Positions 11,210-37,715 of a DNA stretch of 64,000 nucleotides are shown here, piece by piece. The position numbers and the translations under genes were made by a program. Under the pieces are notes generated by a model that ran no database searches, was not told where the DNA came from, and saw only the letters and a program-made list of their open reading frames with translations. Within the stretch, counting starts at the first letter, position 1. Each line of letters opens with the position of its first letter. Origin of the DNA: an uncultured Bacteroidales bacterium (GTDB lineage Bacteria > Bacteroidota > Bacteroidia > Bacteroidales > JAAYJT01); the NCBI GenBank assembly GCA_964550455.1, contig CAZJZG010000008.1:12486-76485 (forward strand). The letters run 5' to 3'.

Positions 11210-11251
11210 AGTTTTAAGTTAATAATCATTCAGATAAATTTAATTTGGGCG

Positions 11252-11259
11252 CAAAGCTA
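11252..11259 (-). promoter_or_regulatory. -7 promoter element (TAGCTTTG) of the POT gene
   Basis: TAnnTTTG match about 45 bp upstream of the start. Confidence 0.55.
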
Positions 11260-11417
11260 TGAAAAAAAACGATTTACTGAATGCGCCACTTATAACTTGC
11301 CCAGATTAAATAAACAGAACGAAACTGGATAACACAGCTAAATAAGTGCTGATTATACTATTTCTTGTCTTCATTAAAAAAATAAAGGACTTTTGTTAAA
11401 GTCAAAAAATATTTATG

Positions 11418-11425
11418 TAGCTTTG
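11418..11425 (+). promoter_or_regulatory. -7 promoter element (TAGCTTTG) of the T9SS/LTD gene pair
   Basis: TAnnTTTG match 90 bp upstream of 11516. Confidence 0.55.
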
Positions 11426-11515
11426 CAAGGAACAAACAACACATCTATTTAATCGCAATATTTCCATCATAAATATATATAGTCCAAAACCCACAAACTA
11501 ATTTAAATTTTAATT

Positions 11516-11971
11516 ATGAAGAAAACTCAGCTAAAACTACTCTGGTTGTTAACAGCATTCTTACTGCTATATCAGCCCAAAATCTGTGCTCAGGAATACA
11601 TGCGTATTAACCTGAAAAATGGCACAGTGATGTCATTTGCTTTATCGGACATTCAGAAACTCACATTTGATGTACAAACGGGTATTACTGAGCAAACTGA
11701 ACTTGTTAAGCAATTATTAAAGCTCAAAGCCTATCCCAATCCGGCTAAAGATCATGTAATTATTGAATATTCATTAATTGAACAGGGAGATGTATGGCTG
11801 GAAATTTTTAACTCCGTCGGAAACACTATCGTAAGCAAAACAATTGGATTGCAGTCACCCGGAAATCACCAGTATCAATGGTTATTGCATGGGGTTCCTA
11901 CCGGCCTTTATATATGCCGTATTAAACAACATAACCAAATCGTTAGTGAAAAAATTATTGTTAAGAAATAA
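11516..11971 (+). CDS. Small secreted protein with T9SS type A C-terminal sorting domain
   Basis: Signal peptide, ~27-aa module, TGITE linker, then CTD (AYPNPA...IFNSVG...GLYICRI...KIIVKK). Confidence 0.88.
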   Translation: MKKTQLKLLWLLTAFLLLYQPKICAQEYMRINLKNGTVMSFALSDIQKLTFDVQTGITEQTELVKQLLKLKAYPNPAKDHVIIEYSLIEQGDVWLEIFNSVGNTIVSKTIGLQSPGNHQYQWLLHGVPTGLYICRIKQHNQIVSEKIIVKK

Positions 11972-11982
11972 AAATTAGAAAA

Positions 11983-13380
11983 ATGAAAAAATTTACTTTT
12001 ACTCTTTTATGTTTTTTCCTGGCTGCTGCCAGCCTTTCAGCCCAAAAACTGAATATTTTTAAAAGCGATGGTACTATTATCAACGTTCCTTTAAACAGTA
12101 TTGACAGCATCACATTTTCAGACGAGATTCCTGCTGCCAGTGATATTCTTATGAACGAAATATATTCAAGAGGCACTGCCGATGATCCTGACTGGATTGA
12201 AATATACAATAAGTCAGATGCGCCTGTAGATATAAGCGGTTATAAAATTTATGACATTGGTGGATTTAGCGGATCTAAACCTAAAAAGGAATTTCCTGCC
12301 GGCTCAGTTGTTCCTGCTCATGGTTTTTATGTCATTATAACTGATAGAACCGATGATTCCTCAGATTTTGGTCTTTCAGCCAATGGTGAAGAAGTATGGT
12401 TCGAAGATGCAAGCGGAACTATTATTGATAATGTCACATTTGCTTATATGGATGTAACCCAGAGTTATGGCCGCCTGCCGGATGGATCGGCTAACTGGCA
12501 GTTGCTAAATATCATTACCAAGGGTGGATCCAATCAGAATACACTTACTGCAACCATTGTAATGAATGAAATATACTCAATGGGTACTAACGAAGATCCG
12601 GATTGGATTGAAATATACAACGCTTCGCCATTTGACTTCGATATAAGTGGATTTAAAATTTATGATGATGGTGGATTTAACGGAACCAAACCCAAAAAAG
12701 AATTCCCCGAAGGAACGATAATACCTGCAAATGGATTTTTTGTTATTGTTACTGATAAAACAGGCGATCCTTCAGATTTCGGACTTTCAAAAAATGGTGA
12801 AGAAGTATGGCTTGAAGATGCTGCCGGAGAAGTTATTGATAATGTAACTTTTCCTGCATTGACAGAAGATCAGAGTTACGGTCGCTTTCCTGATGGAACT
12901 GAAGACTGGCAAATTCTGAATACTGTTACTAAAGGTACTCCAAACAGCAATGTTACACCTTCGGTTTTATTTATGAATGAAGTCTTTTCACGTGGTACTG
13001 TCGAAGATCCGGATTGGATTGAAATTTATAACAGCTCATCAGGAGATATTGATCTTACCGGTTATAAAATTTATGACGTAGGAGGATATTCAGGAACTAA
13101 ACCTAAGAAAGAATTCCCCGAAGGAACAATAATTCCGGCTAATGGGTTCTATGTAATTATAGTTGATGATGATGATCCCAGCGGTTTTGGTTTAGGCAAA
13201 AATGGTGAGGAAATCTGGCTTGAAGATCCTAATGGCGTTGTAATTGATAATTATATTTTTCAGGCAATGGAAGAAACCCAAAGTTATGGTCGCCAGCCTG
13301 ACGGTACTGCTAATTTCTTTATCTTCATTGAAATTACAAAAGGTTCGTCAAATAATAATGCCGGTACTTTAGGCAAATAA
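11983..13380 (+). CDS. Secreted protein with three lamin tail domains (LTD)
   Basis: Signal peptide and three repeats of hMNEhYS.G....PDWIEIYN....DhsGYKIYD...FGLxxNGEEhWhED...QSYGRxPDG; no CTD. Confidence 0.88.
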   Translation: MKKFTFTLLCFFLAAASLSAQKLNIFKSDGTIINVPLNSIDSITFSDEIPAASDILMNEIYSRGTADDPDWIEIYNKSDAPVDISGYKIYDIGGFSGSKPKKEFPAGSVVPAHGFYVIITDRTDDSSDFGLSANGEEVWFEDASGTIIDNVTFAYMDVTQSYGRLPDGSANWQLLNIITKGGSNQNTLTATIVMNEIYSMGTNEDPDWIEIYNASPFDFDISGFKIYDDGGFNGTKPKKEFPEGTIIPANGFFVIVTDKTGDPSDFGLSKNGEEVWLEDAAGEVIDNVTFPALTEDQSYGRFPDGTEDWQILNTVTKGTPNSNVTPSVLFMNEVFSRGTVEDPDWIEIYNSSSGDIDLTGYKIYDVGGYSGTKPKKEFPEGTIIPANGFYVIIVDDDDPSGFGLGKNGEEIWLEDPNGVVIDNYIFQAMEETQSYGRQPDGTANFFIFIEITKGSSNNNAGTLGK

Positions 13381-13399
13381 TCCTTATTTTGAATTTTTA

Positions 13400-13437
13400 A
13401 AAATCAGGCGGTAAACTTAGATTTACCGCCTGATTTT
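13400..13437 (+). terminator. Intrinsic terminator
   Basis: 16-bp stem aaaatcaggcggtaaa/tttaccgcctgatttt, 6-nt loop, 20 bp after the LTD gene stop. Confidence 0.8.
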
Positions 13438-13602
13438 GTTTTAATATTTCTGAAAGTTGCTGTTTGATTTACAAAAAGTTCATGCCTTAAATATCTTCTT
13501 CGAAAGTCAAATATTTTACCTGTTAAAACCTTTGTAAATATATATCTGTGAATAAACATTACACTCTTTATAATTGTTAATCGGGATATATAAATCATCC
13601 AT

Positions 13603-14370
13603 ATGACTTTCAAAATTCTAAAAACCCAAAATCAGGATGGGATCTTTACTATTACCATCAGCCGTCCTGAAGCCTTGAATGCCTTGAACACAGCTTTCTT
13701 TGATGAAATGGACCATTTGCTTGATGATATTTCTAACGACGATTCAGTAAAAATCATCATTATTACCGGAGTGGGCAAGGCATTTGTTGCCGGTGCCGAT
13801 ATTGCCGAAATGGTAAACAAAAACAGCATTGAAGGAACAGAATTCTCTGTACGAGGTCAAAAGGTTTTCCGTAAAATGGAACACCTTGATAAACCCATAA
13901 TTGCCGCTATAAACGGATTTGCTTTGGGAGGCGGGTTAGAACTTGCACTGGCATGCGACATCAGGTTAGCTTCAGATAAAGCCAGATTCGGACAGCCAGA
14001 AGTAAATCTTGGTCTTATCCCGGGATTTGCAGCAACACAGCGGCTTCCTCGTTTGATAGGAACTGCAAATGCTTTATGGCTATTAATGACTGCTGAAATG
14101 ATTGATGCCGCCGAAGCTCTGCGTATAGGGCTGGTTCAGAAAGTATTTGTGCCAGAGGAACTAATTGAATCTGCAAACAAAATGGCACAGCTTATTCTGA
14201 GCAAAGGACCAAAAGCCGTTAAAAAAATTAAAAAAGTAGTTCGTAAAGGTATGGAAACCGATTTTGATTCGGGAAGTCAACTGGAAGCGCAGGAATTTGG
14301 CACTCTGTTCGGGAATGAGGGAGAAGAAGGGATGAGAGCCTTTCTTGAAAAACGAAAACCGGAATTCTGA
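13603..14370 (+). CDS. Enoyl-CoA hydratase (crotonase)
   Basis: AFVAGADI, NGFALGGGLELALACD and FGQPEVNLGLIPG motifs with both catalytic Glu residues. Confidence 0.93.
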   Translation: MTFKILKTQNQDGIFTITISRPEALNALNTAFFDEMDHLLDDISNDDSVKIIIITGVGKAFVAGADIAEMVNKNSIEGTEFSVRGQKVFRKMEHLDKPIIAAINGFALGGGLELALACDIRLASDKARFGQPEVNLGLIPGFAATQRLPRLIGTANALWLLMTAEMIDAAEALRIGLVQKVFVPEELIESANKMAQLILSKGPKAVKKIKKVVRKGMETDFDSGSQLEAQEFGTLFGNEGEEGMRAFLEKRKPEF

Positions 14371-14508
14371 TTTAATTTCTGCTTTTAAACTTTTCATTTT
14401 CAGGTTTTTTAAAGAAATGGATGAAAATTCAGACAAAACAACAAAACTATCCGGATCAAAAACACAACTGATAAACATAATACCATAATCCAAAACAAGT
14501 AAAATTCA

Positions 14509-15843
14509 ATGAAATACAATGAGAAACTAAGCAATGTTGTCGTCCTGGGGGCAGCAGGCAAAATGGGCAGTGGTATAGTACTTCTTACAGCTGTTGAAAT
14601 GGCCAATAATTGTTTTGCTGAGGGTAAAAGCACCGATGAGGTCAGCCTTCATGCAATTGATGTTTCAGCGCCGGCTCTTGGCGGACTGATGAAATATCTA
14701 AGAAGCCAGATTTTGAAAAACGCTGAAAAAATGACTGTACAACTGAGAAAGTGGTATGCCACAAACCCAAAACTTATTGAAAACGAAGATGTTATAAATC
14801 AATATGTAAATGATGTTCTGAGTGTGGTAAAACCTACAACCAGAATAGAAGCTGCTTATGATGCACAGCTTGTCTTTGAAGCAGTGAGCGAGAATCCTGA
14901 AGTAAAAGTGAAACTTTTCAGCAATATCAATCAAAACAACCCCTATAATCCATGGTTTCTAAGTAATACATCTTCTATTCCAATTAACGAACTGGATGAA
15001 AAAGCCGGTCTTAATGGTAATATCATAGGATTCCATTTTTACAATCCTCCGGCAGTTCAGAAACTCATGGAAATAATTCCATCAAAAAACACAAATCAGG
15101 AATTATTTGATTTTGCAGAAAAACTTGCTAAAAACCTTAAAAAAACCATTGTTTTTTCAAACGATGTGGCAGGATTTATTGGCAATGGCTTTTTTATGCG
15201 TGATATTATTCATGCAGTCAGCGAAGTTCAGAAGCTTAGTAACCAAATGTCGTTCACTGAAGCACTATATGTGGTAGATAAGGTAAGCAGGGATTTTCTT
15301 GTCAGGCCTATGGGTATTTTCCAATTATCAGATTATGTAGGAATTGATGTCTGCCTTTTTATCATGAAAGTAATGGATGAGCGGTTTCCCGGCGAAACAC
15401 TTCAAAGTCAGGCTCTGTCCGGATTTATGAAACTTGGCCTAAAAGGCGGTCAGTTCGCTGATGGGAGTCAGAAAGATGGGATTTTTAAATATACCAAAGG
15501 TCAGATCACAGAAATTTTTGATCTGGAAGCTAAGCAATACATTGATATTAAACCTGTTGCAGGATCCGGTGATAAATTTATCGGTGATATACCTCCAGGC
15601 TGGCAACCATGGAAAAACATAATTAAGATCCGTTCACGTGAAGAAACTCTAAAGCAGTATTTTAACGGATTAAAAAATATGGATACAAAAGGAGCCAAAT
15701 TAGCAGTATCATATGCACAAAAAGCCGGCGAAATTGGTAAAAAGCTGGTAAATGACGGTGTTGCACACAGCACTGAAGATGTAAACACTGTTATGACCAC
15801 CGGTTTCTTTCATGCCTACGGACCAGTGAATAATTATCTTTAA
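14509..15843 (+). CDS. 3-hydroxyacyl-CoA dehydrogenase, atypical long form
   Basis: VLGAAGKMGSG Rossmann motif, FEAVSE, SNTSS, GFHFYNP...MEI (His-Glu dyad), GFIGN and PMGIFQLSDYVGID. Confidence 0.85.
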   Translation: MKYNEKLSNVVVLGAAGKMGSGIVLLTAVEMANNCFAEGKSTDEVSLHAIDVSAPALGGLMKYLRSQILKNAEKMTVQLRKWYATNPKLIENEDVINQYVNDVLSVVKPTTRIEAAYDAQLVFEAVSENPEVKVKLFSNINQNNPYNPWFLSNTSSIPINELDEKAGLNGNIIGFHFYNPPAVQKLMEIIPSKNTNQELFDFAEKLAKNLKKTIVFSNDVAGFIGNGFFMRDIIHAVSEVQKLSNQMSFTEALYVVDKVSRDFLVRPMGIFQLSDYVGIDVCLFIMKVMDERFPGETLQSQALSGFMKLGLKGGQFADGSQKDGIFKYTKGQITEIFDLEAKQYIDIKPVAGSGDKFIGDIPPGWQPWKNIIKIRSREETLKQYFNGLKNMDTKGAKLAVSYAQKAGEIGKKLVNDGVAHSTEDVNTVMTTGFFHAYGPVNNYL

Positions 15844-27124: not shown

Positions 27125-28219
27125 TTATTCTTCTTTTTTGTTAAGGATTTCAGTTTGTATCCTGATTGATTCTTTATGAACCAGTTGCAAAATGTGAAGT
27201 AAAAAATCCCTGTTCATTCCATGTTTTCCTGCAGTTTCAAGCCTGCTGTTAATAAGCTCACGCCATCGCTCTATCTGCAGGATCGTAATATTATGATCAC
27301 GTTTATATTCACCCATTTCATGAACTATTTTCATTCGTTTGGCCAATATTTCAATCAACTGAGTGTCAATAATATCAATTTTCAATCTGAGCTCTTCAAG
27401 AATATTACTGAATTCTGGGCTGCCCTTCTCAATACGGATCGTGAGATCAATAAGAATCTTTGCCAGAGTTTCCGGAAGTATCTGCTGATTGCTGTCAGTA
27501 AGTGCCTTGTCAGGGTTATTATGAGTTTCAATCATTAGCCCGTCCATTTCAAGATCAAGGGCTTTTTGCGAAACTTCAGCAATCAGATAACGATTTCCAC
27601 AAATATGACTTGGATCGCAAAATATTGGCAAACCAGGCATCAGACGCATCAGTTCAATGGGAATTTCCCACCTCGGATTATTACGGTATGGTCCTTCATC
27701 GAAGCAATGAAATCCTCTATGCACAGCAGCAAGCTTAGTGATGCCTGCCTGATAAAAGCGTTCCAGAGCTCCAAGCCAGAGTTTAAGATCGGGGTTAAGC
27801 GGATTTTTTACTAACACAGGTATATCAGTACCGGTAAGAACCTCAGCAAGTTCCTGTATCGAAAACGGATTTCCGGTTGTACGTGCTCCAATCCAAAGAA
27901 TATCCATTCCATATTTTAAAGCCAGCTCAATATGAGCAGGTTTAGCTACTTCAACTGCAATTTTTAAACCTGTTTCCTGCTGAACCACCTGCATCCACTT
28001 TAAACCTTCCTCTCCCACCCCTTCAAATGCAGATGGACGGGTACGCGGTTTCCAGATACCAGCACGCATAGCTTTTACCTGAGGAATAAGAGCCAGTTGC
28101 CGCGCTATATCCAATACCTGTTCCCTGGATTCGGCACTGCACGGACCACTTATTACCGTGGGACGTTCATAATCTCCAAGCCATGAACTAAGAGGCTGTA
28201 TGACATAGGTTTCGCTCAT
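27125..28219 (-). CDS. Bifunctional DAHP synthase (I-beta) / chorismate mutase
   Basis: GPCSAES, RAGIWKPRTRP, WIGART, VKNP and DPSH motifs plus a C-terminal CM domain (LRLKIDIID...KRM...QIERW). Confidence 0.92.
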   Translation of the reverse strand: MSETYVIQPLSSWLGDYERPTVISGPCSAESREQVLDIARQLALIPQVKAMRAGIWKPRTRPSAFEGVGEEGLKWMQVVQQETGLKIAVEVAKPAHIELALKYGMDILWIGARTTGNPFSIQELAEVLTGTDIPVLVKNPLNPDLKLWLGALERFYQAGITKLAAVHRGFHCFDEGPYRNNPRWEIPIELMRLMPGLPIFCDPSHICGNRYLIAEVSQKALDLEMDGLMIETHNNPDKALTDSNQQILPETLAKILIDLTIRIEKGSPEFSNILEELRLKIDIIDTQLIEILAKRMKIVHEMGEYKRDHNITILQIERWRELINSRLETAGKHGMNRDFLLHILQLVHKESIRIQTEILNKKEE

Positions 28220-28225
28220 AAGCGG

Positions 28226-28233
28226 CAAAATTA
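28226..28233 (-). promoter_or_regulatory. -7 element (TAATTTTG) 7 nt upstream of the DAHP/CM ATG
   Basis: TAnnTTTG match; near-leaderless geometry. Confidence 0.5.
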
Positions 28234-28549
28234 CTCATTTAAAATTCCTATGTTATTAAATAACTTCAATAAAAATTATTCGTAAGCATCAAAACCATCA
28301 TTAACCATCTTCTTATTATTGAACTCAAAACAGTAATAAAAAACCATCTTGACCCGGGATAAAATCTCATTATGTGGAGATCTGGCAAATATGCTAGTTC
28401 AAAGCTTTACTCTACATAATAAGCTCTGCAAAATTCCGAAAATTGAGTTCAGAAAATCCTTATTCAATTTCTGACAAGGCAAATCAGCTTATTCCATAAG
28501 CTCAAAACAATACAATTTCATCACTGCTTCGAAACATCTCAGAAATCCA

Positions 28550-28557
28550 TATCTTTG
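28550..28557 (+). promoter_or_regulatory. -7 element (TATCTTTG) of the AOS-TDH operon
   Basis: TAnnTTTG match 30 bp upstream of 28587. Confidence 0.55.
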
Positions 28558-28586
28558 CAGCACTAAAAATTTCAAATTATTGAGTT

Positions 28587-29840
28587 ATGGATATTTTCGA
28601 ACGACGTTTAAACAATTACGGACCTCTTGGAATGTGGGCTGAAAAAGCTCATGGATATTATATGTTCCCAAAACTTGAAGGGGATATTTCAAACCGCATG
28701 GTTTTTCAGGGAAAAGAACGACTGGTTTGGAGTCTGAACAATTATCTGGGACTGGCAAATCATCCGGAAGTAAGAAAAGTTGATGCTGAAGCTGCTGCTA
28801 AATTTGGTCTGGCATATCCTATGGGTGCGAGAATGATGTCGGGTCAAACAGAATATCATGAAGAACTTGAAAAGCAACTTGCTGAATTTGTTGAAAAAGA
28901 AGATGCATATCTGCTGAATTATGGCTATCAGGGCATGGTTTCTATTATTGACTCACTTATTGACCGTAAGGATGTTGTGGTTTACGATTCTGAATCACAT
29001 GCCTGTATTATTGACGGTTTAAGAATGCACCTTGGAAAAAGATTTGTATTTCAGCATAACGATATTGAGAACTTTGAAAAACAATTGAATCATGCTAAAA
29101 AAGTAAGTGAACAAACCGGAGGCGGTATTCTGGTAATTACTGAAGGTGTGTTTGGTATGGCCGGCGATATGGGTAAGATTGACAAAATAGCTGAACTCAA
29201 ATTGAAATTTCGTTTCAGACTACTTGTGGATGATGCTCATGGGTTTGGGACAATGGGTGCCAAAGGAATGGGAACCGGTGAAGCCAAAGGTGTTCAGGAT
29301 CAGATTGATGTGTATTTTGCCACATTCGCCAAATCAATGGCAGGAATAGGGGCTTTTGTAGGAGGCGATAGTGATATTATCAATTATCTGCGTTATAATA
29401 TGCGTTCACAGATTTTTGCAAAATCACTTCCCATGCCTATTGTTATCGGTTCTTTAAAAAGGCTCGAACTACTTAAAACCCAGCCACAACTCAGAGAAAA
29501 ACTGTGGAATATTGCTAATTCTCTTCAGAACAAACTTCGTGAAAATGATTTTAATCTGGGTCGTACTGAATCGCCGGTAACTCCTGTATTTTTGCAGGGA
29601 GGCATCCCCGAAGCAACTCAACTGACTTATGAGTTACGTGAAAAATACAATATTTTCTGTTCTATAGTGGTATATCCGGTGGTTCCAAAAGATGTGATAA
29701 TGCTCAGATTGATCCCTACGGCAGCCCATACCCTTGCCGATGTTGATGAAACTGTAAATGCATTCATTGAAGTGAAAAATAATCTTCAGTCGGGTAAATA
29801 CGATAAAAACTATGTTCCTCAAATGAAAATCCATCCTTAA
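28587..29840 (+). CDS. Alpha-oxoamine synthase, most like cysteate acyltransferase SulA/CapB (sulfonolipid synthesis)
   Basis: AOS motifs NNYLGLANHP, MGARMMSG, HACIIDG, VDDAHG and TFAKS (PLP Lys). The N-terminus DIF.R....GPLG....AHGY..FPKLEG matches my recollection of Alistipes SulA rather than Kbl, BioF or SPT. Family confidence is high; specificity is moderate. Confidence 0.75.
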   Translation: MDIFERRLNNYGPLGMWAEKAHGYYMFPKLEGDISNRMVFQGKERLVWSLNNYLGLANHPEVRKVDAEAAAKFGLAYPMGARMMSGQTEYHEELEKQLAEFVEKEDAYLLNYGYQGMVSIIDSLIDRKDVVVYDSESHACIIDGLRMHLGKRFVFQHNDIENFEKQLNHAKKVSEQTGGGILVITEGVFGMAGDMGKIDKIAELKLKFRFRLLVDDAHGFGTMGAKGMGTGEAKGVQDQIDVYFATFAKSMAGIGAFVGGDSDIINYLRYNMRSQIFAKSLPMPIVIGSLKRLELLKTQPQLREKLWNIANSLQNKLRENDFNLGRTESPVTPVFLQGGIPEATQLTYELREKYNIFCSIVVYPVVPKDVIMLRLIPTAAHTLADVDETVNAFIEVKNNLQSGKYDKNYVPQMKIHP

Positions 29841-29852
29841 TCCCAAACATAT

Positions 29853-30803
29853 ATGGAAAAAATATTAATAATTGGTTGTTCCGGGCAGATTGGAACAGAG
29901 TTAACTCTTGAATTGAGAAAGATTTATGGCGATGCCAATGTTTTTGCTACTGACATAAAGGAAGCTCCTCCTGAAGTCCGCGATTCAGGACCTTTTGAGA
30001 TCCTTGATGTTCTTGACGAAAAACGACTTAATCATTTTGCAATCCGTCATAAAATCACTCAGGTTTACAATCTTGCTGCTGTGCTTTCAGGAAATGCCGA
30101 AAAAATTCCAATGCAAGCCTGGAATATTAATATGATCGCATTGCTGAATATTTTGGAATTAGGTCGTTCAATCCGGCTCAATAAGGTTTTCTGGCCAAGC
30201 TCAATTGCAGTGTTTGGACCTACTACTCCCAAGATCAACACTCCTCAGCTTACAATCACTGAACCCAATACTGTTTACGGTATAAGCAAGCTCGCAGGCG
30301 AGCGCTGGGGTGAGTATTATCATAAACGTTATTGCATTGATTTCCGCAGTGTCAGATACCCAGGACTTATTTCGTATAAAACCGAACCCGGAGGAGGAAC
30401 TACTGATTACGCCGTGGAAATTTATTATAAAGCAATTGAAGAAGGTAAATATGAATGTTTTCTGAAAGAAGATACAGGACTTCCTATGATGTTCATGCCT
30501 GACGCCATAAAAGCAACCATCAGCCTTATGGAAGCCGAAGCACATAAAATCACGGTTCGCTCAAGCTACAATATCGGAGGCATGAGCTTTACACCTCATG
30601 ATGTGGCTCAGTCTATTATTAAGCATATTCCCGATTTTGAAGTTACTTATAAACCCGATTTTCGACAGGCAATTGCAAATTCGTGGCCTACCAGCATTGG
30701 CGACGAAGTAGCACGTAACGACTGGGATCTGACTTATGAATACGACCTCGATTCAATGACTAAAGTAATGCTCAGAGAAATAAAGGCTAAGATGAATGGC
30801 TGA
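29853..30803 (+). CDS. tdh: SDR-type L-threonine 3-dehydrogenase
   Basis: IIGCSGQIG, WPSSIAVFG, YGISK, RYPGLIS, PGGGTTDYA and PDFRQAIANSWP match Flavobacterium-type SDR threonine dehydrogenase. Confidence 0.85.
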   Translation: MEKILIIGCSGQIGTELTLELRKIYGDANVFATDIKEAPPEVRDSGPFEILDVLDEKRLNHFAIRHKITQVYNLAAVLSGNAEKIPMQAWNINMIALLNILELGRSIRLNKVFWPSSIAVFGPTTPKINTPQLTITEPNTVYGISKLAGERWGEYYHKRYCIDFRSVRYPGLISYKTEPGGGTTDYAVEIYYKAIEEGKYECFLKEDTGLPMMFMPDAIKATISLMEAEAHKITVRSSYNIGGMSFTPHDVAQSIIKHIPDFEVTYKPDFRQAIANSWPTSIGDEVARNDWDLTYEYDLDSMTKVMLREIKAKMNG

Positions 30804-30847
30804 CAGTTGTTGTCTGTTCCGTAACAAAACGCTTGTAAAAATAATGA

Positions 30848-30883
30848 ATAGGGTTTGCATATACTTTCAGATGCAAACCCTAT
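30848..30883. terminator. Bidirectional terminator between tdh and mltF
   Basis: 13-bp stem atagggtttgcat/atgcaaaccctat. Confidence 0.75.
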
Positions 30884-30899
30884 AATTTTTTATCCGAAA

Positions 30900-32345
30900 T
30901 CAATTTTGAATTGCGGCTTTATAATGGTTGAACCGGCTAAGAATGTCGTTAACAAACCTGTATGATTCTTCGCCATAGCAATAACCATATTGTACTACTT
31001 CGTCGCTGTAGTATTCAGGTTTTGATTTATTTCTCAAATAAAAATCCACATTTCCATCCCAGATATTAGGATCTTTATTGTTTTTGGCTGCCAGACGCCT
31101 TGCATCGAACACATGAGCAAGTCCTGCATTATAGGCTGCAAGCACAAATTTTTGTCTTTCGGCAGGATCACTTATTTCTGATGGCATTTGTTTATCAAGC
31201 CATTTAATATAATGTACACCTGCTGCAATTTGTTCGTAAGCTGTTGAGGTGGAATCAATACCAAGTTCTTCAGCGGTTGAGGGCATCATCTGCATTATGC
31301 CAAAAGCTCCTTTATGTGAAACTATTTCGTGCTGAAATTTCGATTCCTGATAAATCAGGGAAGCAAGTAAACGCCAATCCCAGTTAATTGATTTACTATA
31401 TTTTTTGATTACTTCGTCATAACTTGAAATACGTCCTCCTTTGCGGGAATGAAATTCGCGCTGATCAGCACGCAACCCAAGCGGATTATTAAAATAACGA
31501 TCGTAAAGCAGGACAGCATAACTTGTTTTTGAAAATTCAAACCACCATTTATTTAAAGCTTCCAATAAATCAGTATCACCTCTTTTTAATGCCCAGCCAA
31601 TATTCTGAAAAAACCCAAGAGGAGTTTGTGTGTCAATATCATTATAATATTTTGCATTTACCGAAGATGTTTGCTCATCACTAATAGTATATTCTATTTC
31701 ACCGCGGGCAACCATTGTTATCAGATCTTCGGTACTTAAATCATTAACTGATACCACATTAATTTTAACTCCTGTTTCTTCCTGCAGATTTGCCAGCCGT
31801 TCAGCATAAGCCGAATTGTTCTGTATATAAACGGTTTTGCCTTCAAGGTCCAGCGGATTGCGTATGAGTTTCTTTTCGACTTCATCCCAGGTTCTCATTT
31901 TGCGCCAGTTTTCCGGTTTACGTTGCACAAGCATAAGTCGTGTCTGTAACATAGGTTCGGAAAATGCAACCATATCCCTGCGCTGATTTGTAATTACCAG
32001 TCTTTTGGCTATCAGATCATAAGTACCTGCATTGAGTTCCTTTATAGTTTCTTCAGGATTAGTATTCACTTGAATTTCAAGGTCAACACCAAGATATTCG
32101 GCAAACGAATGAAGCAGATCAAACTGATAGCCTCTGGGTTCGCCACGATACACAAAATAACTTGTTGAGTTCAAATCAGTAACAGCAATAAGTTTCCCTC
32201 TTTCAAGAATGGTTTCCAGACTTTGTTTTTCGGGAACTATTGGGCTTTGAATATCAGTAGATGTGTTGTTACAGGAAAAAAGGATGACAAAAGTTATTAA
32301 AAAGCTCAAAAACGTGGTCTTGTTTAATCTCTTTTTATTTACCAT
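30900..32345 (-). CDS. mltF: Membrane-bound lytic murein transglycosylase F
   Basis: N-terminal solute-binding domain (SYFVYRGEPRGYQFDL) plus SLT domain (DWRLLASLIYQESKF, GIMQMMP, AAYNAG); lipobox LFSC. Confidence 0.92.
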   Translation of the reverse strand: MVNKKRLNKTTFLSFLITFVILFSCNNTSTDIQSPIVPEKQSLETILERGKLIAVTDLNSTSYFVYRGEPRGYQFDLLHSFAEYLGVDLEIQVNTNPEETIKELNAGTYDLIAKRLVITNQRRDMVAFSEPMLQTRLMLVQRKPENWRKMRTWDEVEKKLIRNPLDLEGKTVYIQNNSAYAERLANLQEETGVKINVVSVNDLSTEDLITMVARGEIEYTISDEQTSSVNAKYYNDIDTQTPLGFFQNIGWALKRGDTDLLEALNKWWFEFSKTSYAVLLYDRYFNNPLGLRADQREFHSRKGGRISSYDEVIKKYSKSINWDWRLLASLIYQESKFQHEIVSHKGAFGIMQMMPSTAEELGIDSTSTAYEQIAAGVHYIKWLDKQMPSEISDPAERQKFVLAAYNAGLAHVFDARRLAAKNNKDPNIWDGNVDFYLRNKSKPEYYSDEVVQYGYCYGEESYRFVNDILSRFNHYKAAIQN

Positions 32346-32775: not shown

Positions 32776-33462
32776 TTATTTTATGGCTTTCTCGTAACGA
32801 CGGCTTACTTCATCCCAATTGACGATATTCCAGAAATTACTTATATAATCGCCACGAAGGTTCTGGTATTTCAGGTAATAGGCGTGTTCCCATACATCTA
32901 ATCCCAGTATTGGCACACCTTGTTTATCAACAACGTCCATCAGAGGGTTATCCTGATTAGCAGTTGAAGAAACAAATAATTTATCGCCCTTTTCAACGCT
33001 CAGCCATGCCCATCCGCTACCAAACCGTGTACGTGCAGCTTCTTCAAAAAGGTTTTTAAACTCCTGGAATGACCCAAAAGATGATTTAATGGCTTCAGCC
33101 AGTTTTCCTTTAGGCTCACCTCCGCCATAAGGCGACATAACTGCCCAGAAAAGAACATGGTTATAATGTCCTCCGCCGTTGTTACGAAGTGCAACAGGGT
33201 ATTTGCTCATAGAGACAAAAAGTTGTTCAAGGGATAGTTTCTCCACCTCTGTGCCTTCAATTGCTTTGCGATAATTATTAAAATAAGCTTTGTGATGACG
33301 CTCGTAGTGAATTTCCATTGTCATCTGGTCAATATAAGGCTCCAAAGCATTAAAAGAATAAGGCAACGGAGGGAATTCGTCTGCTTTCTGCGCATTACTT
33401 TCTGAAATCACAAAGCCATAAGCGAAAAATGCTAATAACAAAAGTTTGCTGATAGTTTTCAT
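32776..33462 (-). CDS. sod: Fe/Mn superoxide dismutase with N-terminal signal peptide
   Basis: [26 protein letters not shown] and DVWEHAYY motifs; [24 protein letters not shown] is signal-peptide-like. Confidence 0.95.
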
Positions 33463-33643: not shown

Positions 33644-34282
33644 TTAAATTCTGCCCAATGCCTTTGTATATTTTTCGCTTACTGCCTTCCAGTTAACCAC
33701 ATTCCAGAAATTAGCTATATATTCCGGACGGCGGTTCTGATATTTCAGATAGTAAGCATGTTCCCATACATCTAATCCCATAATTGGAATACCTGAATGT
33801 TCTGCAACATCCATGAGCGGATTATCCTGATTGGGAGTAGAAAGCACGAACAACGATTTATCTTTTTTCACAGTCAGCCATGCCCAACCGCTTCCAAAAC
33901 GGTTTGCAGCAGCATCACTGAATAATTCCTTGAATTTATCAAACGAACCAAAAGCCTTATTAATTGCTTCAGCAAGTTCACCATCAGGTGCTCCGCCTGC
34001 ATTTGCCGACATTATATTCCAGAAAAGATCATGATTATAAAAACCTCCTCCGTTATTTCTTACGGCTGCAGGAACTTTTGAAACATTGGCAAAAATTTCT
34101 TCAAGTGATTTTTCTTCTAACTCTGTACCTTTAATTGCTGCCATAAACTTATCGTAATAAGCTTTGTGATGCTTATTATAATGTATGTCCATAGTCATTT
34201 TATCAATGTATGGCTCCAAAGCATCATAACTATATGGCAAAGCAGGAAAATTCAATTCTTTTGATTTTGATTTTAACAACAT
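33644..34282 (-). CDS. sod: Fe/Mn superoxide dismutase (cytoplasmic type)
   Basis: [26 protein letters not shown] and DVWEHAYY motifs. Confidence 0.95.
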
Positions 34283-34481
34283 AAACAAAAACTAATTAAT
34301 AAAGTTCAACATGAGTGAGCTAATTTATACTCATTCTAAATAACAGGCCTGACTGTGGTTTGTTCAAAACAAGCATCACAATCATGTATTTTTTTATTAT
34401 TAAGCCTACACATCCCTGATATACAGCTCAATAACGGAGTGTAAAATTTTTAAGTTTGAAGGCTGGCAGCAAAAAAATTAT

Positions 34482-37400
34482 TTATTTGAAAGCTTTTTCG
34501 AGTAATCCATCACCTTTTAAGTTCATTCTATCAAAATAAGAAGGAACTTCTTTTCCGGTAAGCTTATCAACATAAAGCTTTGCAAGATACTGCCCCAGCA
34601 TAAATCCTTGTCCGCGTAAGCCAATTAACAGACCGGCATCTACGTCGAGCACCATTCTGGGTTCCACATAATAACCTGCCCACACTGCCTGAAAACCAAC
34701 AGACGAAAGGCTTGGTATCCAATTGGTAAACACCTCGGCAACTATCTCAATAAATTCTTTGGAATTGATTTTCAGGTTTTTATCAGTTTCCATTGGTTCA
34801 ATTTCTGGTGAGGCGCAGCCTATTACCTGTCCGGTTTCAGCAAGCTGCTGTCCGTATACTGCAGTAAAACCTTTATAGTTCCGGCGATCAATAAGCATTG
34901 GCAGAGGGGTATTGTTCACACCCATAAAAGGAAGACGGCGAGTTATAAAAGCCTGATGTTTTACGGGATACAAACCGGTTTCATGTCCAAGCTTTCTAGC
35001 AAAAACATCGCCTTCAGGTCCAAGTGCATTTACAAAGTGAGAGGTATGGAATTCGATATATTCTTTTTCATGATTCTGAACCAGAGCTATATAGGTTTGA
35101 CCATTCTTTGTAATATCTATAAGACGGCAGTCTTCAAGGATCTCACCACCGTTATCAATTCCTATACGCCGCACAAGATCAATAACACGTCCCGGTGTAG
35201 CCTGCCAACAATCCTCGGTCACCAATGCTGCAATATATGTATTAAGTGAAGTATTTATATAAGGAGTGATCTCTTTTTTAAACTGTCCCGGCTTTATCAT
35301 TTTAGCATTTGACCATGCCATTGAAGCTTCAAGAGAATTATACATTTCTTCGTCGTGAGCAAAAGTAACATAACGGATAGGCAGGAAATCAATGTTACTG
35401 ATTTTTTGTAGTTCTCTGAATATTTCAAGGTTATGCCTTGCTATATCAGAAAGTTCAGGAAGGCTGAAATTTGGCCTGCCACCTGCAATATTACGCCATG
35501 ATGCACCACGCCCGAAATTGATAAGAGTAGGCTTTAGCCCTGCTTCAGCCATATATCTGAATAAGGCGCTACCAGCGATTCCACCTCCGGCGATCAAAGT
35601 TTGAACTTTTACTTTCCTGGGGCTTTTTCCGGTTATATTGGTAATAATTTTGTCCTGAACCGTACGGGGATAAAGCTCACCCAATGAAACCTGATTTGAT
35701 AAGGGTCCGCGCGGAGTTGGTTCGCCAACTATAGAAATACCAGTACCTGCAAGAGTTTGTTTTAAACGTTTTATACAACGCTTACCGCGGCATGCACCCA
35801 TTCCAAGTCTGGTTGTATGCTTGACTTCATCCACCGAAATAAATTTACGATCACCAATTACATCAAGTATTTCATCTATTGCAACATCATCGCAATGACA
35901 AACATAGGTGTCCTCTTCCTTGCGATAGGTGGTTTTCTTCATTTTTAAAGGTTCGGGGTAATCTTTCTTAGCAATAAAACCCCTTACATTATTTAATGAT
36001 TCACCATGAACATCAAGAGATAAAACACGGGCAATATGAGTCTTATTTGGTTTTTTCAGAATTTTCTCAACAATACCATTACCAAGGATCTTCCCATTAT
36101 TATCTGCGAGATACACCTCAGTTTTTTCATCAACAAAATATTCGATAGGCAGGAAAAGCCAGTTTTTCTTTGGGTTATAACCAAAAATGGCAAGACCCGG
36201 ACATTGATAAACACAATCCATGCAACCAATACATTTATCAAAATCAATATAGGGAACCGTGCTGGTACTTGTCTTAGTTATGGCACCCTGAGGGCAGGCA
36301 AACTCACACGGATTGCAGGCAAAGCCATAAAGACAATCAATTAACACATAAGGCTTTCCATTCATTCTATCCGGTTCTGGACGATAAGGTTCTTTTATTA
36401 TCCTTAACGGATGTTGCTGTGAATCAATATATTCCTTTGACACTGCAAGATATGCATCATAATCGAAACGTTCATTCATTTCCTGAAGTATCTCGTAAGC
36501 TACCTGCTTGCCACGTAATACCGCCGATGTGCCTTCGCCAATGCGGATGGCATCTCCGGCTCCAAAGCATTTTCGTCCAAAAATATCATTGCCTTTAATC
36601 AAAAGCTGATCATCAGGTACAAGACCGGTACATATATTAATAGCATCAATCCCCTCTATTATTTTTTCAGTATCGGGAACGGGCCTAAAGTTTTTACATT
36701 CTGCAACAACAGCACCGGTTATTCCATCACGATTTTTATTGGGAATGGCTTTGAGTAGAATATGGGAAAGCAGGATGGGAATACCAAGCCGCCTTACTCT
36801 GTTTGCCTGAACCGGGAAACCGCCTTCAAACGGCTGTGCTTCAATAATTGCTTTTACTTTTGCTCCTGCCTGCATCAACTGGTATGAAGTAAGATATCCA
36901 ATATTTCCAGCTCCAACAGTCAAAATATTTTTTCCAAGTAGTGTAAACTCGTTATTCATCATTTTTTGAACAACGGCAGCAGTATATACACCCGGGAGGT
37001 CATCGTTCTCAAAAGTAGGCATAAAAGGTACTGCTCCTGATGCAACTACCAGATAATCAGCATCAATATAATAAATTTCATCGGTTTTGATATTTTTCAC
37101 AGCCAGTCGCTTACCTTCAAGAATATCCCAGACTGTAGAATTTAGAAAAATTCCCTCAAGACTATCACCTGCAAGAGTTTTCGCAATATCAAATCCACGC
37201 ATGCCTCCAAACTTTTTCTCTTTCTCAAAAAAGAAAAACTGGTGGGTTTGCATTAAAAACTGGCCTCCTATCTTATCATTGTTGTCAATAACGATATTTT
37301 CAATGCCATGTTTGTTAAGTTCCTCACGAACGGCAAGTCCGGCAGGTCCTGCTCCAATGATTGCCACCTGGGTTTTATATACCCAAAACGGAATATCCTG

Positions 37401-37715
37401 TCTGTAAACAGTTACAGAAGGTGAATAATCCCTGGGAATTTCCTTAACTTCTTTAACTCCATCAACCTTAGTGATACAAATTCTTTTAATTTGTCCGTCA
37501 ACCAGCATTTCGCAAGCTCCGCATTTTCCAATACCACATTCAAGGCTTCGTTCACGATTCTTCAAACTATGACTATGAACCGGAAAGCCTGCCTGATGTA
37601 ATGCTGCAGCAATGGTAAAACCTTTTTCGCTTTGAATGATCTGATCATTATACCTGAAACTTTGTTTTTCGTTAGCAGGAATTTCAAGAATTGGGTGTTT
37701 TTCAATCTTACGCAT
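34482..37715 (-). CDS. Multi-domain FAD/Fe-S oxidoreductase (fused HcnA/HcnB/ferredoxin/BFD/HcnC-like; sarcosine/proline dehydrogenase-like)
   Basis: [2Fe-2S] CGIGKCGAC...CIT; GAGPAG and GAGNIG Rossmann motifs; two [4Fe-4S] motifs (CLYGFACNPCEFACP, CIGCMDCVYQCP); BFD-like CHC...TRLGMGACRGKRC; DAO domain GGGIAG...GLRGQGFMLG. Confidence 0.85.
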   Translation of the reverse strand: MRKIEKHPILEIPANEKQSFRYNDQIIQSEKGFTIAAALHQAGFPVHSHSLKNRERSLECGIGKCGACEMLVDGQIKRICITKVDGVKEVKEIPRDYSPSVTVYRQDIPFWVYKTQVAIIGAGPAGLAVREELNKHGIENIVIDNNDKIGGQFLMQTHQFFFFEKEKKFGGMRGFDIAKTLAGDSLEGIFLNSTVWDILEGKRLAVKNIKTDEIYYIDADYLVVASGAVPFMPTFENDDLPGVYTAAVVQKMMNNEFTLLGKNILTVGAGNIGYLTSYQLMQAGAKVKAIIEAQPFEGGFPVQANRVRRLGIPILLSHILLKAIPNKNRDGITGAVVAECKNFRPVPDTEKIIEGIDAINICTGLVPDDQLLIKGNDIFGRKCFGAGDAIRIGEGTSAVLRGKQVAYEILQEMNERFDYDAYLAVSKEYIDSQQHPLRIIKEPYRPEPDRMNGKPYVLIDCLYGFACNPCEFACPQGAITKTSTSTVPYIDFDKCIGCMDCVYQCPGLAIFGYNPKKNWLFLPIEYFVDEKTEVYLADNNGKILGNGIVEKILKKPNKTHIARVLSLDVHGESLNNVRGFIAKKDYPEPLKMKKTTYRKEEDTYVCHCDDVAIDEILDVIGDRKFISVDEVKHTTRLGMGACRGKRCIKRLKQTLAGTGISIVGEPTPRGPLSNQVSLGELYPRTVQDKIITNITGKSPRKVKVQTLIAGGGIAGSALFRYMAEAGLKPTLINFGRGASWRNIAGGRPNFSLPELSDIARHNLEIFRELQKISNIDFLPIRYVTFAHDEEMYNSLEASMAWSNAKMIKPGQFKKEITPYINTSLNTYIAALVTEDCWQATPGRVIDLVRRIGIDNGGEILEDCRLIDITKNGQTYIALVQNHEKEYIEFHTSHFVNALGPEGDVFARKLGHETGLYPVKHQAFITRRLPFMGVNNTPLPMLIDRRNYKGFTAVYGQQLAETGQVIGCASPEIEPMETDKNLKINSKEFIEIVAEVFTNWIPSLSSVGFQAVWAGYYVEPRMVLDVDAGLLIGLRGQGFMLGQYLAKLYVDKLTGKEVPSYFDRMNLKGDGLLEKAFK

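What the first reader, a model, noticed from the sequence alone, without database searches (positions are those of the whole stretch)
28587..30803. SulA/CapB-like sulfonolipid acyltransferase co-transcribed with an SDR threonine dehydrogenase
Seen: an AOS gene followed 12 bp later by a Tdh-type SDR, with one promoter motif and one terminator. Established: Tdh normally pairs with Kbl. Capnine synthesis needs a cysteate acyltransferase plus an SDR reducing a 2-amino-3-keto product, the same chemistry as Tdh in reverse. The AOS matches my recollection of Alistipes SulA, not Kbl. Inference: either the Tdh-like SDR serves as the 3-dehydrocapnine reductase, or this SulA-clade enzyme has Kbl activity. 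No cysteate synthase is visible in the window.
Basis: partly seen in the sequence, partly recalled or inferred. Interest (0 to 1): 0.55.

Follow-up and report, generated by a model that had tools for sequence, protein, structure and literature searches.

The report
Sulfonolipid synthase–threonine dehydrogenase two-gene operon
An uncultured wastewater Bacteroidales bacterium has an ordinary sulfonolipid-starting enzyme and an ordinary threonine dehydrogenase fused into one small operon, an arrangement almost confined to its genus, and nothing in either sequence points to new chemistry.

Summary
ORF 28587-29840 (417 aa) is followed after 12 nt by ORF 29853-30803 (316 aa), between a divergent upstream gene and a convergent downstream gene.

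Gene 1 is a cysteate fatty-acyltransferase (CFAT/SulA/CapB):
- It matches Alistipes SulA (7U7H) at E 6e-181 and Capnocytophaga CFAT (28EH) at E 1e-179. SPT and Kbl structures score only 205-235 bits.
- All cysteate and PLP contact residues are kept.

Gene 2 is a standard SDR-type L-threonine dehydrogenase. It scores 426 bits against Flavobacterium TDH (2YY7) and keeps all 56 family-invariant positions.

- The genome has two Kbl genes that pass the curated cutoff, a cysteate synthase, and five unassigned classical SDRs of the type known to reduce 3-ketocapnine.
- Where both genes were placed (about 85 of 400 phylum genomes, about 115 of 200 order genomes), they are unlinked.
- CFAT→tdh adjacency occurs in all 9 genomes of this genus and in one unrelated lineage (AU test p = 3e-5). 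Elsewhere tdh usually sits beside kbl.

One metatranscriptome contig (28575-30854) spans both genes.

Most likely this is a lineage-specific operon of two unrelated pathways. Interest is low. The recurrence in two lineages is the only unexplained point.

The parts
28550..28557 (+). TATCTTTG, a Bacteroidota -7-type promoter motif 30 nt upstream of the CFAT start codon
   Evidence: Sequence and pattern scan, which shows no enrichment over chance. The RNA contig of run X15 begins at 28575, 18 nt downstream of the motif.
28587..29840 (+). Cysteate fatty-acyltransferase (CFAT/SulA/CapB), 417 aa. This PLP-dependent alpha-oxoamine synthase catalyses the condensation step of sulfonolipid (capnine) synthesis, after cysteate synthase supplies cysteate.
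   Evidence: PDB 7U7H E 6e-181 and 28EH E 1e-179, aligned end to end without gaps in the core. It keeps N51, G80, A81, Y112, G113, Y114, H138, C140, D215, H218, T246, K249 and K279. It falls in the CFAT clade (SH-aLRT 99), apart from SPT and Kbl.
29841..29852 (+). 12-nt intergenic spacer
   Evidence: Sequence. The spacer is 12-30 nt in the eight other genomes of the genus.
29853..30803 (+). NAD-dependent L-threonine 3-dehydrogenase of the extended-SDR (GalE-like) type, 316 aa
   Evidence: PDB TDHs: 2YY7 426 bits, 3WMW 371 bits, 3A1N 299 bits. Pfam PF01370. All 56 near-invariant TDH columns are kept, including G8/G11/G14, S79, S116, S117, Y142, K146, G180-D185 and W278.
30848..30892 (.). 13-bp perfect hairpin plus U run between the convergent tdh and mltF-like genes. 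It is a probable bidirectional terminator.
   Evidence: Fold: -22.9 kcal/mol, z -3.4, 0 of 200 shuffles as stable. RNA contigs stop at 30854 from the left and start at 30893 from the right in run X15.

Best explanation
This is a small operon of two canonical enzymes that belong to different pathways.

- Gene 1 condenses cysteate with a fatty acyl thioester to give 3-ketocapnine, the committed step of sulfonolipid synthesis. The cysteate comes from a cysteate synthase on contig C20.
- Gene 2 oxidises L-threonine to 2-amino-3-ketobutyrate. The Kbl enzymes encoded on contig C53 then cleave that product to glycine and acetyl-CoA.
- The ketone of 3-ketocapnine is most likely reduced by one or more of the genome's classical SDRs, as in Alistipes and Chryseobacterium.
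- The juxtaposition arose when tdh left its usual place beside kbl and landed behind the CFAT gene in the ancestor of this genus.

Shown here: the identities, the residues, the distribution, and an RNA contig across both genes. Inferred: all activities, and the absence of shared chemistry. Whether co-expression is selected for remains open.
For: **Identity of gene 1.** 605 and 601 bits to the two solved CFATs, against 235 bits to SPT and 207 bits or less to Kbl structures. NCBIfam Kbl, SPT and BioF models all score far below their cutoffs. It keeps 124 of 126 columns that are near-invariant in 88 other CFATs, including every first-shell residue defined in PMC13692747 and the SulA Lys281 discriminator of PMC9304779. 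The CFAT, SPT and Kbl clades each have SH-aLRT support of 99.

**Identity of gene 2.** Strong matches to characterised SDR-type TDHs. All 56 near-invariant columns are kept in the window's protein and in 8 of the 9 proteins of the genus. Only 4 sites are genus-specific, all in variable columns. The stem branch of the genus is 0.11, which is not accelerated.

**Other pathway parts are present elsewhere in the genome.**
- Kbl1 scores 625 bits and Kbl2 574 bits against a cutoff of 460.
- Cysteate synthase TIGR03844 scores 466 bits against a cutoff of 325.
- There are 7 adh_short SDRs, 5 of them unassigned.

**Distribution of the adjacency.**
- Phylum sample of 400 genomes: 0 of about 85 genomes with both genes placed have them adjacent.
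- Order sample of 200 genomes: only this genus and G417, among about 115 genomes with both genes.
- 80 nearest CFAT loci: 1 adjacent, L108.
- This genus: 9 of 9.
- Elsewhere tdh lies next to kbl in 18 of the 28 non-genus TDH loci examined.

**Transcription.** RNA contig 28575-30854 in run X15.
Against: - The same CFAT→tdh order arose a second time, independently. It is seen in G417:C443 and L108. Their TDHs fall in the other deep TDH clade, and the AU test rejects a single origin (p = 3e-5). That is more than expected for two arbitrary genes.
- Within the genus the pair stays together while the flanking genes differ.
- No enzyme activity was measured.
- Three of the four RNA runs give no contig across the junction, and contigs cannot prove a single transcript.
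Confidence: 0.8

Rival explanations
1. The pairing is selected for co-expression through metabolism rather than shared substrates. Threonine breakdown supplies acetyl-CoA (and NADH or glycine) when the cell builds acyl chains for sulfonolipid, so tdh was recruited into a lipid-building transcription unit.
For: The arrangement arose twice independently. In the second lineage the cluster continues with holo-ACP synthase and an AMP-forming acyl/acetyl-CoA ligase (L108), or with Kbl and an ADP-forming acetyl-CoA synthetase (G417). SulA uses acyl-ACP (PMC9304779). The pair is kept in the genus despite changes in the flanks.
Against: About 200 genomes with both genes placed have them unlinked. Kbl, which is needed to release acetyl-CoA, is not in the operon here. 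No regulator or riboswitch lies upstream. The AcpS and ligase genes of L108 also flank kbl in this genome and in G425, so they are the normal neighbours of the threonine cluster rather than of CFAT.
Confidence: 0.1
2. The Tdh-type SDR doubles as, or has become, the 3-ketocapnine reductase. It would run its usual chemistry in reverse on the 2-amino-3-keto product of the neighbouring CFAT.
For: Both substrates are 2-amino-3-keto/hydroxy compounds. The genes are tightly co-oriented and an RNA contig spans them. The adjacency recurs independently. Published reductase screens searched only 3-KDSR-like classical SDRs, so Tdh-type enzymes were never tested (PMC11211663).
Against: - No conserved TDH position is changed and no rate acceleration is seen.
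- The two CFAT-linked lineages share no convergent substitutions at conserved sites.
- Known reductases are classical SDRs scattered in the genome, and several are redundant. This genome has five unassigned ones.
- Linkage is missing in nearly all sulfonolipid-capable genomes.
- By my own reasoning from SPT-type stereochemistry, 3-ketocapnine presents the mirror arrangement at C-alpha relative to L-2-amino-3-ketobutyrate, and it carries CH2SO3- plus a C15 chain where TDH binds COO- and a methyl group.
Confidence: 0.07
3. The SulA-clade enzyme here also acts as Kbl for the neighbouring Tdh.
For: The AOS→tdh layout mimics kbl→tdh operons such as that of G127.
Against: Two Kbl genes pass the curated cutoff elsewhere in the genome, and every genome of the genus has at least one. 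Gene 1 scores 290 bits against a Kbl cutoff of 460. It has the full cysteate pocket. Tested CFATs gave little or no product with glycine, tested with long-chain acyl donors (PMC13692747).
Confidence: 0.02

Closest known systems
Alistipes finegoldii SulA (PDB 7U7H; PMC9304779) and Capnocytophaga ochracea CFAT/CapB (PDB 28EH; PMC13692747)
   Same: Full-length, essentially gap-free alignments (E 6e-181 and 1e-179). The PLP lysine, the Lys281-equivalent (K279) and all cysteate-contact residues are kept.
   Different: Those genes, like nearly all CFAT genes surveyed, have no tdh beside them. This one has G316K on a non-pocket position and Y for F at position 112, which is the majority state among CFATs.
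Flavobacterium frigidimaris L-threonine dehydrogenase (PDB 2YY7) and other SDR-type TDHs (3WMW/3WMX Cupriavidus, 3A1N Thermoplasma)
   Same: Same length and fold family, with all family-invariant motifs kept: GxxGxxG, SS, YxxxK, GGGTTD and WP.
   Different: Genomic partner. These TDHs typically sit with kbl; the Cupriavidus tdh-kbl operon is described in PMC9814548. Here the upstream AOS gene is a CFAT and kbl is on another contig.
Canonical tdh-kbl gene pair of Bacteroidota
   Same: An extended-SDR tdh lies directly next to an alpha-oxoamine synthase gene, sometimes co-oriented with a very short spacer (for example G127).
   Different: There the AOS is a Kbl that passes the curated cutoff (about 55-65% identical to this genome's Kbl1). 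Here it is a CFAT only about 31% identical to Kbl.
3-ketocapnine reductases (KCR/CapC; PMC11211663)
   Same: NAD(P)H-dependent SDR-superfamily enzymes that act on a 2-amino-3-keto lipid.
   Different: They are classical short-chain SDRs related to 3-ketodihydrosphingosine reductase and are unlinked to cfat. Gene 2 is an extended SDR (PF01370) with no adh_short match.

Membership tests
Cysteate fatty-acyltransferase (CFAT/SulA/CapB) | Groups with biochemically characterised CFATs, apart from SPT, Kbl and BioF | tested here: met
   605 and 601 bits to 7U7H and 28EH, against 235 bits or less to SPT and Kbl structures. The CFAT clade has SH-aLRT support of 99 with a stem of 2.5 substitutions per site.
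Cysteate fatty-acyltransferase (CFAT/SulA/CapB) | PLP lysine and catalytic scaffold (His, Asp, His, Thr) | tested here: met
   K249, H138, D215, H218 and T246 align to COCFAT K250, H139, D216, H219 and T247.
Cysteate fatty-acyltransferase (CFAT/SulA/CapB) | Second-protomer lysine (SulA K281 / COCFAT K280) that distinguishes CFAT from SPT, plus sulfonate contacts (N52, G81, A82, M277, F278) | tested here: met
   K279, N51, G80, A81, I276 and F277 are present. Ile is the commonest residue at the M277 position among 88 CFATs (PMC9304779; PMC13692747).
Cysteate fatty-acyltransferase (CFAT/SulA/CapB) | Cysteate supply in the same genome (cysteate synthase) | tested here: met
   TIGR03844 scores 465.6 bits against a cutoff of 324.9, at G000:C20:36183-37388.
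Cysteate fatty-acyltransferase (CFAT/SulA/CapB) | Cysteate-dependent formation of 3-ketocapnine | not testable with these tools
   Needs an enzyme assay or LC-MS.
Glycine C-acetyltransferase (Kbl), for gene 1 | Score above the curated equivalog cutoff | tested here: not met
   NF005394 scores 289.6 against a cutoff of 460. TIGR01822 scores 244.4 against 493.
SDR-type (GalE-like) L-threonine 3-dehydrogenase | Extended-SDR fold with a GxxGxxG NAD site and a Ser/Tyr/Lys catalytic set | tested here: met
   PF01370. G8/G11/G14, S116/S117, Y142 and K146 are present.
SDR-type (GalE-like) L-threonine 3-dehydrogenase | Close similarity to characterised TDHs and retention of family-invariant columns | tested here: met
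   2YY7 scores 426 bits over residues 3-309. 56 of 56 near-invariant columns are kept, including S79, GGGTTD 180-185 and W278-P279.
SDR-type (GalE-like) L-threonine 3-dehydrogenase | Kbl partner encoded in the genome | tested here: met
   Two Kbl genes lie on contig C53, scoring 625 and 574 bits against a cutoff of 460. They are not adjacent to tdh.
SDR-type (GalE-like) L-threonine 3-dehydrogenase | NAD-dependent oxidation of L-threonine | not testable with these tools
   Needs an enzyme assay.
3-ketocapnine reductase (KCR/CapC), for gene 2 | Classical SDR related to 3-ketodihydrosphingosine reductase | tested here: not met
   Gene 2 has no adh_short (PF00106) match and is an extended SDR. The seven adh_short genes of the genome lie elsewhere.
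3-ketocapnine reductase (KCR/CapC), for gene 2 | Reduction of 3-ketocapnine | not testable with these tools
   Needs co-expression or an in vitro assay as in PMC11211663.

The most novel reading that the evidence does not exclude
In two separate Bacteroidales lineages a threonine dehydrogenase was recruited behind the sulfonolipid condensing enzyme because it serves that pathway. It could do so either as an extended-SDR type of 3-ketocapnine reductase not yet recognised, or by docking onto the Kbl-like fold of CFAT as TDH is reported to do with Kbl.
Probability: 0.07. Interest if true: 0.6.

Novelty: new member of a known kind. Interest (0 to 1): 0.22.

Why it matters
If the ordinary reading holds, the value is practical. 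It assigns a full early sulfonolipid pathway (cysteate synthase plus CFAT) to an uncultured Bacteroidales genus found in activated sludge and wastewater. It also warns annotators that an alpha-oxoamine synthase next to tdh is not necessarily Kbl. Only if the threonine dehydrogenase proved to act on 3-ketocapnine would it add a new enzyme type to a pathway whose reductase step is still poorly defined.

Tried and rejected
- **Sigma-70 promoter scan.** Not informative for Bacteroidota. Its terminator scan missed the real hairpin because the loop is 10 nt.
- **TAnnTTTG motif count.** Not enriched, so the single motif is weak evidence.
- **Rfam scan of 28000-31100.** No riboswitch or leader was found. 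The only match is a sub-threshold snoRNA chance hit.
- **Literature.** No paper in the library holds both 'threonine dehydrogenase' and 'sulfonolipid'. None of the three sulfonolipid enzyme papers mentions threonine. PMC9364336 (the Flavobacterium johnsoniae CFAT paper) is not held. Papers listing TDH substrate-contact residues were not found, so conservation across 28 TDHs was used instead.
- **Neighbourhood of the cysteate synthase.** No SDR or other lipid gene lies beside it.
- **RNA runs X16, X17 and X18.** No contig bridges the junction. The X17 contig starts at 29844, inside the spacer. Uncovered parts and contig depths are not evidence either way.
- **Complex prediction of CFAT with TDH.** Not run. 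The report does not claim binding, and the tool's own guidance says neighbourhood alone is not reason enough.
- **Kbl replaced in situ by CFAT in this genus.** Considered and not pursued. In this genome kbl1-acpS-acs-kbl2 is intact on C53 without tdh, so tdh moved rather than kbl being overwritten.
- **Earlier scan notes.** They list many stand-alone CFAT-like genes without tdh neighbours. This agrees with the survey here but is not independent evidence.
Full report
**1. What is in the sequence**

- Two co-oriented ORFs lie at 28587-29840 (417 aa, P0001) and 29853-30803 (316 aa, P0002), separated by 12 nt.
- The upstream gene is divergent (DAHP synthase/chorismate mutase, 27125-28228). The downstream gene is convergent (SBP_bac_3 + SLT, MltF-like, 30900-32345). 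Genes further out are housekeeping: pheT, a UDP-sugar dehydrogenase, FBPase and two SODs. The pair is therefore a self-contained unit.
- A TATCTTTG motif sits 30 nt before the first ATG. TAnnTTTG occurs no more often in the window than chance predicts (71 against 84), and two further copies lie inside gene 1.
- A perfect 13-bp hairpin with a U run follows gene 2 (30848-30892; z = -3.4).

**2. Where the organism lives, and transcription**

- The stretch occurs in activated-sludge, wastewater and digester metagenomes, and in six metatranscriptomes.
- In run X15 a single 2280-nt RNA-library contig covers 28575-30854, from just after the motif to the hairpin. A separate contig starts at 30893 on the other side of the hairpin.
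- The other three RNA runs cover both genes in pieces that do not bridge the junction. One piece starts at 29844, inside the spacer.
- Both genes appear in RNA-library contigs from these communities. A bicistronic transcript is likely but not proven, because contigs cannot show a single molecule and DNA carry-over is possible.

**3. Gene 1 is a cysteate fatty-acyltransferase**

- It aligns end to end with A. finegoldii SulA (7U7H, E 6e-181) and C. ochracea CFAT (28EH, E 1e-179). The best SPT structure reaches 235 bits and Kbl structures reach 207 bits or less.
- NCBIfam equivalogs for SPT, Kbl and BioF all score far below their cutoffs.
- The residues that contact PLP-cysteate in the 28EH complex (PMC13692747) map here to N51, G80, A81, Y112, G113, Y114, H138, C140, D215, H218, T246, K249, I276, F277 and K279. 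K279 corresponds to SulA Lys281, which PMC9304779 names as the residue separating SulA from Spt.
- In an alignment with 88 other CFAT-clade proteins, 126 columns are at least 97% invariant. The nine proteins of this genus keep 124 of them. The exceptions are T185S in one genome and G316 changed to K/R/N, which is not a pocket residue.
- A tree with SPTs labelled by NF047600 above its cutoff and Kbls labelled by NF005394 above its cutoff gives three clades, each with SH-aLRT 99. P0001 falls in the CFAT clade.

**4. Gene 2 is a standard SDR-type threonine dehydrogenase**

- It matches F. frigidimaris TDH (2YY7, 426 bits), engineered TDHs (up to 469 bits), and the Cupriavidus, Thermoplasma, mouse and trypanosome TDHs. 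It carries PF01370 and no adh_short domain.
- Twenty-eight TDHs from other lineages are 46-70% identical to it. They share 56 near-invariant columns, including the Rossmann glycines, S79, S116/S117, Y142, K146, GGGTTD 180-185 and W278-P279. The genus keeps all of them, apart from one Y266F in one genome.
- Only four sites are genus-specific, all in variable columns. The three residues shared with the second CFAT-linked lineage are also at variable columns.
- In the TDH tree the genus is nested among same-order TDHs, with a stem of 0.11 substitutions per site, no longer than its neighbours' branches.

**5. The rest of the two pathways is present elsewhere in the genome**

- The genome (2.96 Mb, 96.5% complete) has two more AOS genes on contig C53. 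Both pass the Kbl equivalog cutoffs (625 and 574 bits against 460). They sit in a kbl1-acpS-acetate-CoA-ligase-kbl2 cluster.
- A cysteate synthase (TIGR03844, 466 bits against a cutoff of 325) lies on C20, with no lipid gene nearby.
- Seven classical SDRs are present. One is FabG and one is FabI-like, leaving five unassigned.
- The experimentally shown 3-ketocapnine reductases are classical SDRs of this kind. Several are redundant within one genome, and they are not clustered with cfat (PMC11211663).
- No SPT was found in this genome with the P0001 query.

**6. How widespread the pairing is**

| Sample | Result |
|---|---|
| 400 genomes across the phylum | CFAT-clade genes (E < 1e-125) in about 150; TDH (E < 1e-60) in 118; none of the roughly 85 genomes with both placed has them adjacent (nearest 20 kb) |
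| 200 genomes of the order | Of about 115 with both genes, only this genus and G417 have them adjacent |
| 80 CFAT loci closest to P0001 in the species collection (mostly Bacteroidales, Marinilabiliaceae, Lentimicrobium and Prolixibacteraceae MAGs) | 1 (L108) has tdh downstream |
| All eight other genomes of this genus (CFAT 78-97% identical, TDH 76-97%) | All have CFAT→tdh with 12-30 nt spacers, although the flanking genes differ in five of them |

- Outside the genus, tdh lies next to a Kbl that passes the curated cutoff in 18 of the 28 TDH loci examined, either co-oriented or divergent.
- G425 shows tdh divergent from kbl1-acpS-acs-kbl2, the same cluster that this genome keeps on C53 without tdh.

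**7. A second, independent occurrence**

- G417:C443 reads (partial) CFAT→tdh→kbl→ADP-forming acetyl-CoA synthetase.
- L108, a Bacteroidales MAG 84-88% identical in DNA to G417:C443, reads CFAT→tdh→acpS→AMP-dependent ligase.
- A second, 85% identical copy of the CFAT gene's 3' end in the G417 bin (C700) suggests two co-binned populations.
- These TDHs belong to the other deep TDH clade. Forcing all CFAT-linked TDHs into one clade costs 204 log-likelihood units (AU p = 3e-5). The group was defined after the tree had been seen.
- Given that one case was the reason for looking, a second independent case among a few hundred lineages is mildly surprising. By my rough estimate the chance is a few per cent. 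This is the only feature that ordinary drift does not comfortably explain.

**8. Interpretation**

- Both proteins are unremarkable members of their families. Their normal partners are present, and their linkage is missing almost everywhere that both occur.
- The simplest account is that tdh, which is mobile relative to kbl in this part of the order (it is 'alone' in G437, G438, G429 and G432), came to lie behind the CFAT gene in the genus ancestor. It has stayed there as a two-gene transcription unit.
It is not favoured, for these reasons:
  - The pocket residues are unchanged.
  - There is no convergence between the two linked lineages.
  - Reductase candidates are abundant in the genome.
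  - The substrate differs in size, charge group and (by my own reasoning) C-alpha handedness from 2-amino-3-ketobutyrate.
- A softer metabolic or regulatory link, with threonine-derived acetyl-CoA and ACP activation co-expressed with sulfonolipid synthesis, is compatible with the second lineage's cluster. But those extra genes are the normal neighbours of kbl, not of CFAT.

**9. Novelty**

The enzymes are known kinds. The operon layout is unreported in the library searched and is rare, but it is probably incidental. The finding is rated as a new member of known kinds, with low interest. There is a small residual chance (about 7%) of a genuine functional link that a simple co-expression assay would settle.

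Noticed in passing
G000 contig C53, about 9870-15040 (loci L002/L003), outside the window: The cluster reads kbl1 - holo-ACP synthase - AMP-forming acetate-CoA ligase - kbl2. Both AOS genes pass the Kbl equivalog cutoff. Kbl2 is a long-stemmed, very conserved paralogue (82% identical to the copy in another family, G425, against about 58% for Kbl1), which may have a different role. The same double-Kbl layout occurs in G438, G406, G407 and G425.
   Followed up: partly
G417:C443 and G417:C700 (L004, L005): The bin holds two versions, 85% identical, of the 3' end of the CFAT gene and the spacer that follows it. They probably come from two co-binned related populations (700 contigs, 3% contamination). 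Copy counts from this MAG should be read with care.
   Followed up: partly
Genus-level comparison (G404, G405, G407, G408 against G000): Some genomes of the genus carry a Bacteroidota-type serine palmitoyltransferase as well as CFAT. The G407 copy scores 678 bits on NF047600 against a cutoff of 640. None was found in the window's genome, so sphingolipid capacity seems to vary within the genus while sulfonolipid capacity is constant.
   Followed up: partly
window 32776-33462 and 33644-34288 (- strand): Two tandem Fe/Mn superoxide dismutase genes. The first has an N-terminal extension about 16 residues longer than the second.
   Followed up: no
window 34482-37715 (- strand): A 1077-aa single-chain fusion of 2Fe-2S, FAD/NAD reductase, 2x[4Fe-4S], BFD-like 2Fe-2S and DAO flavoprotein domains.
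   Followed up: no
window 30848-30900: RNA-library contigs from the two convergent genes stop on either side of the same hairpin (30854 and 30893 in run X15). This fits a shared bidirectional terminator.
   Followed up: partly
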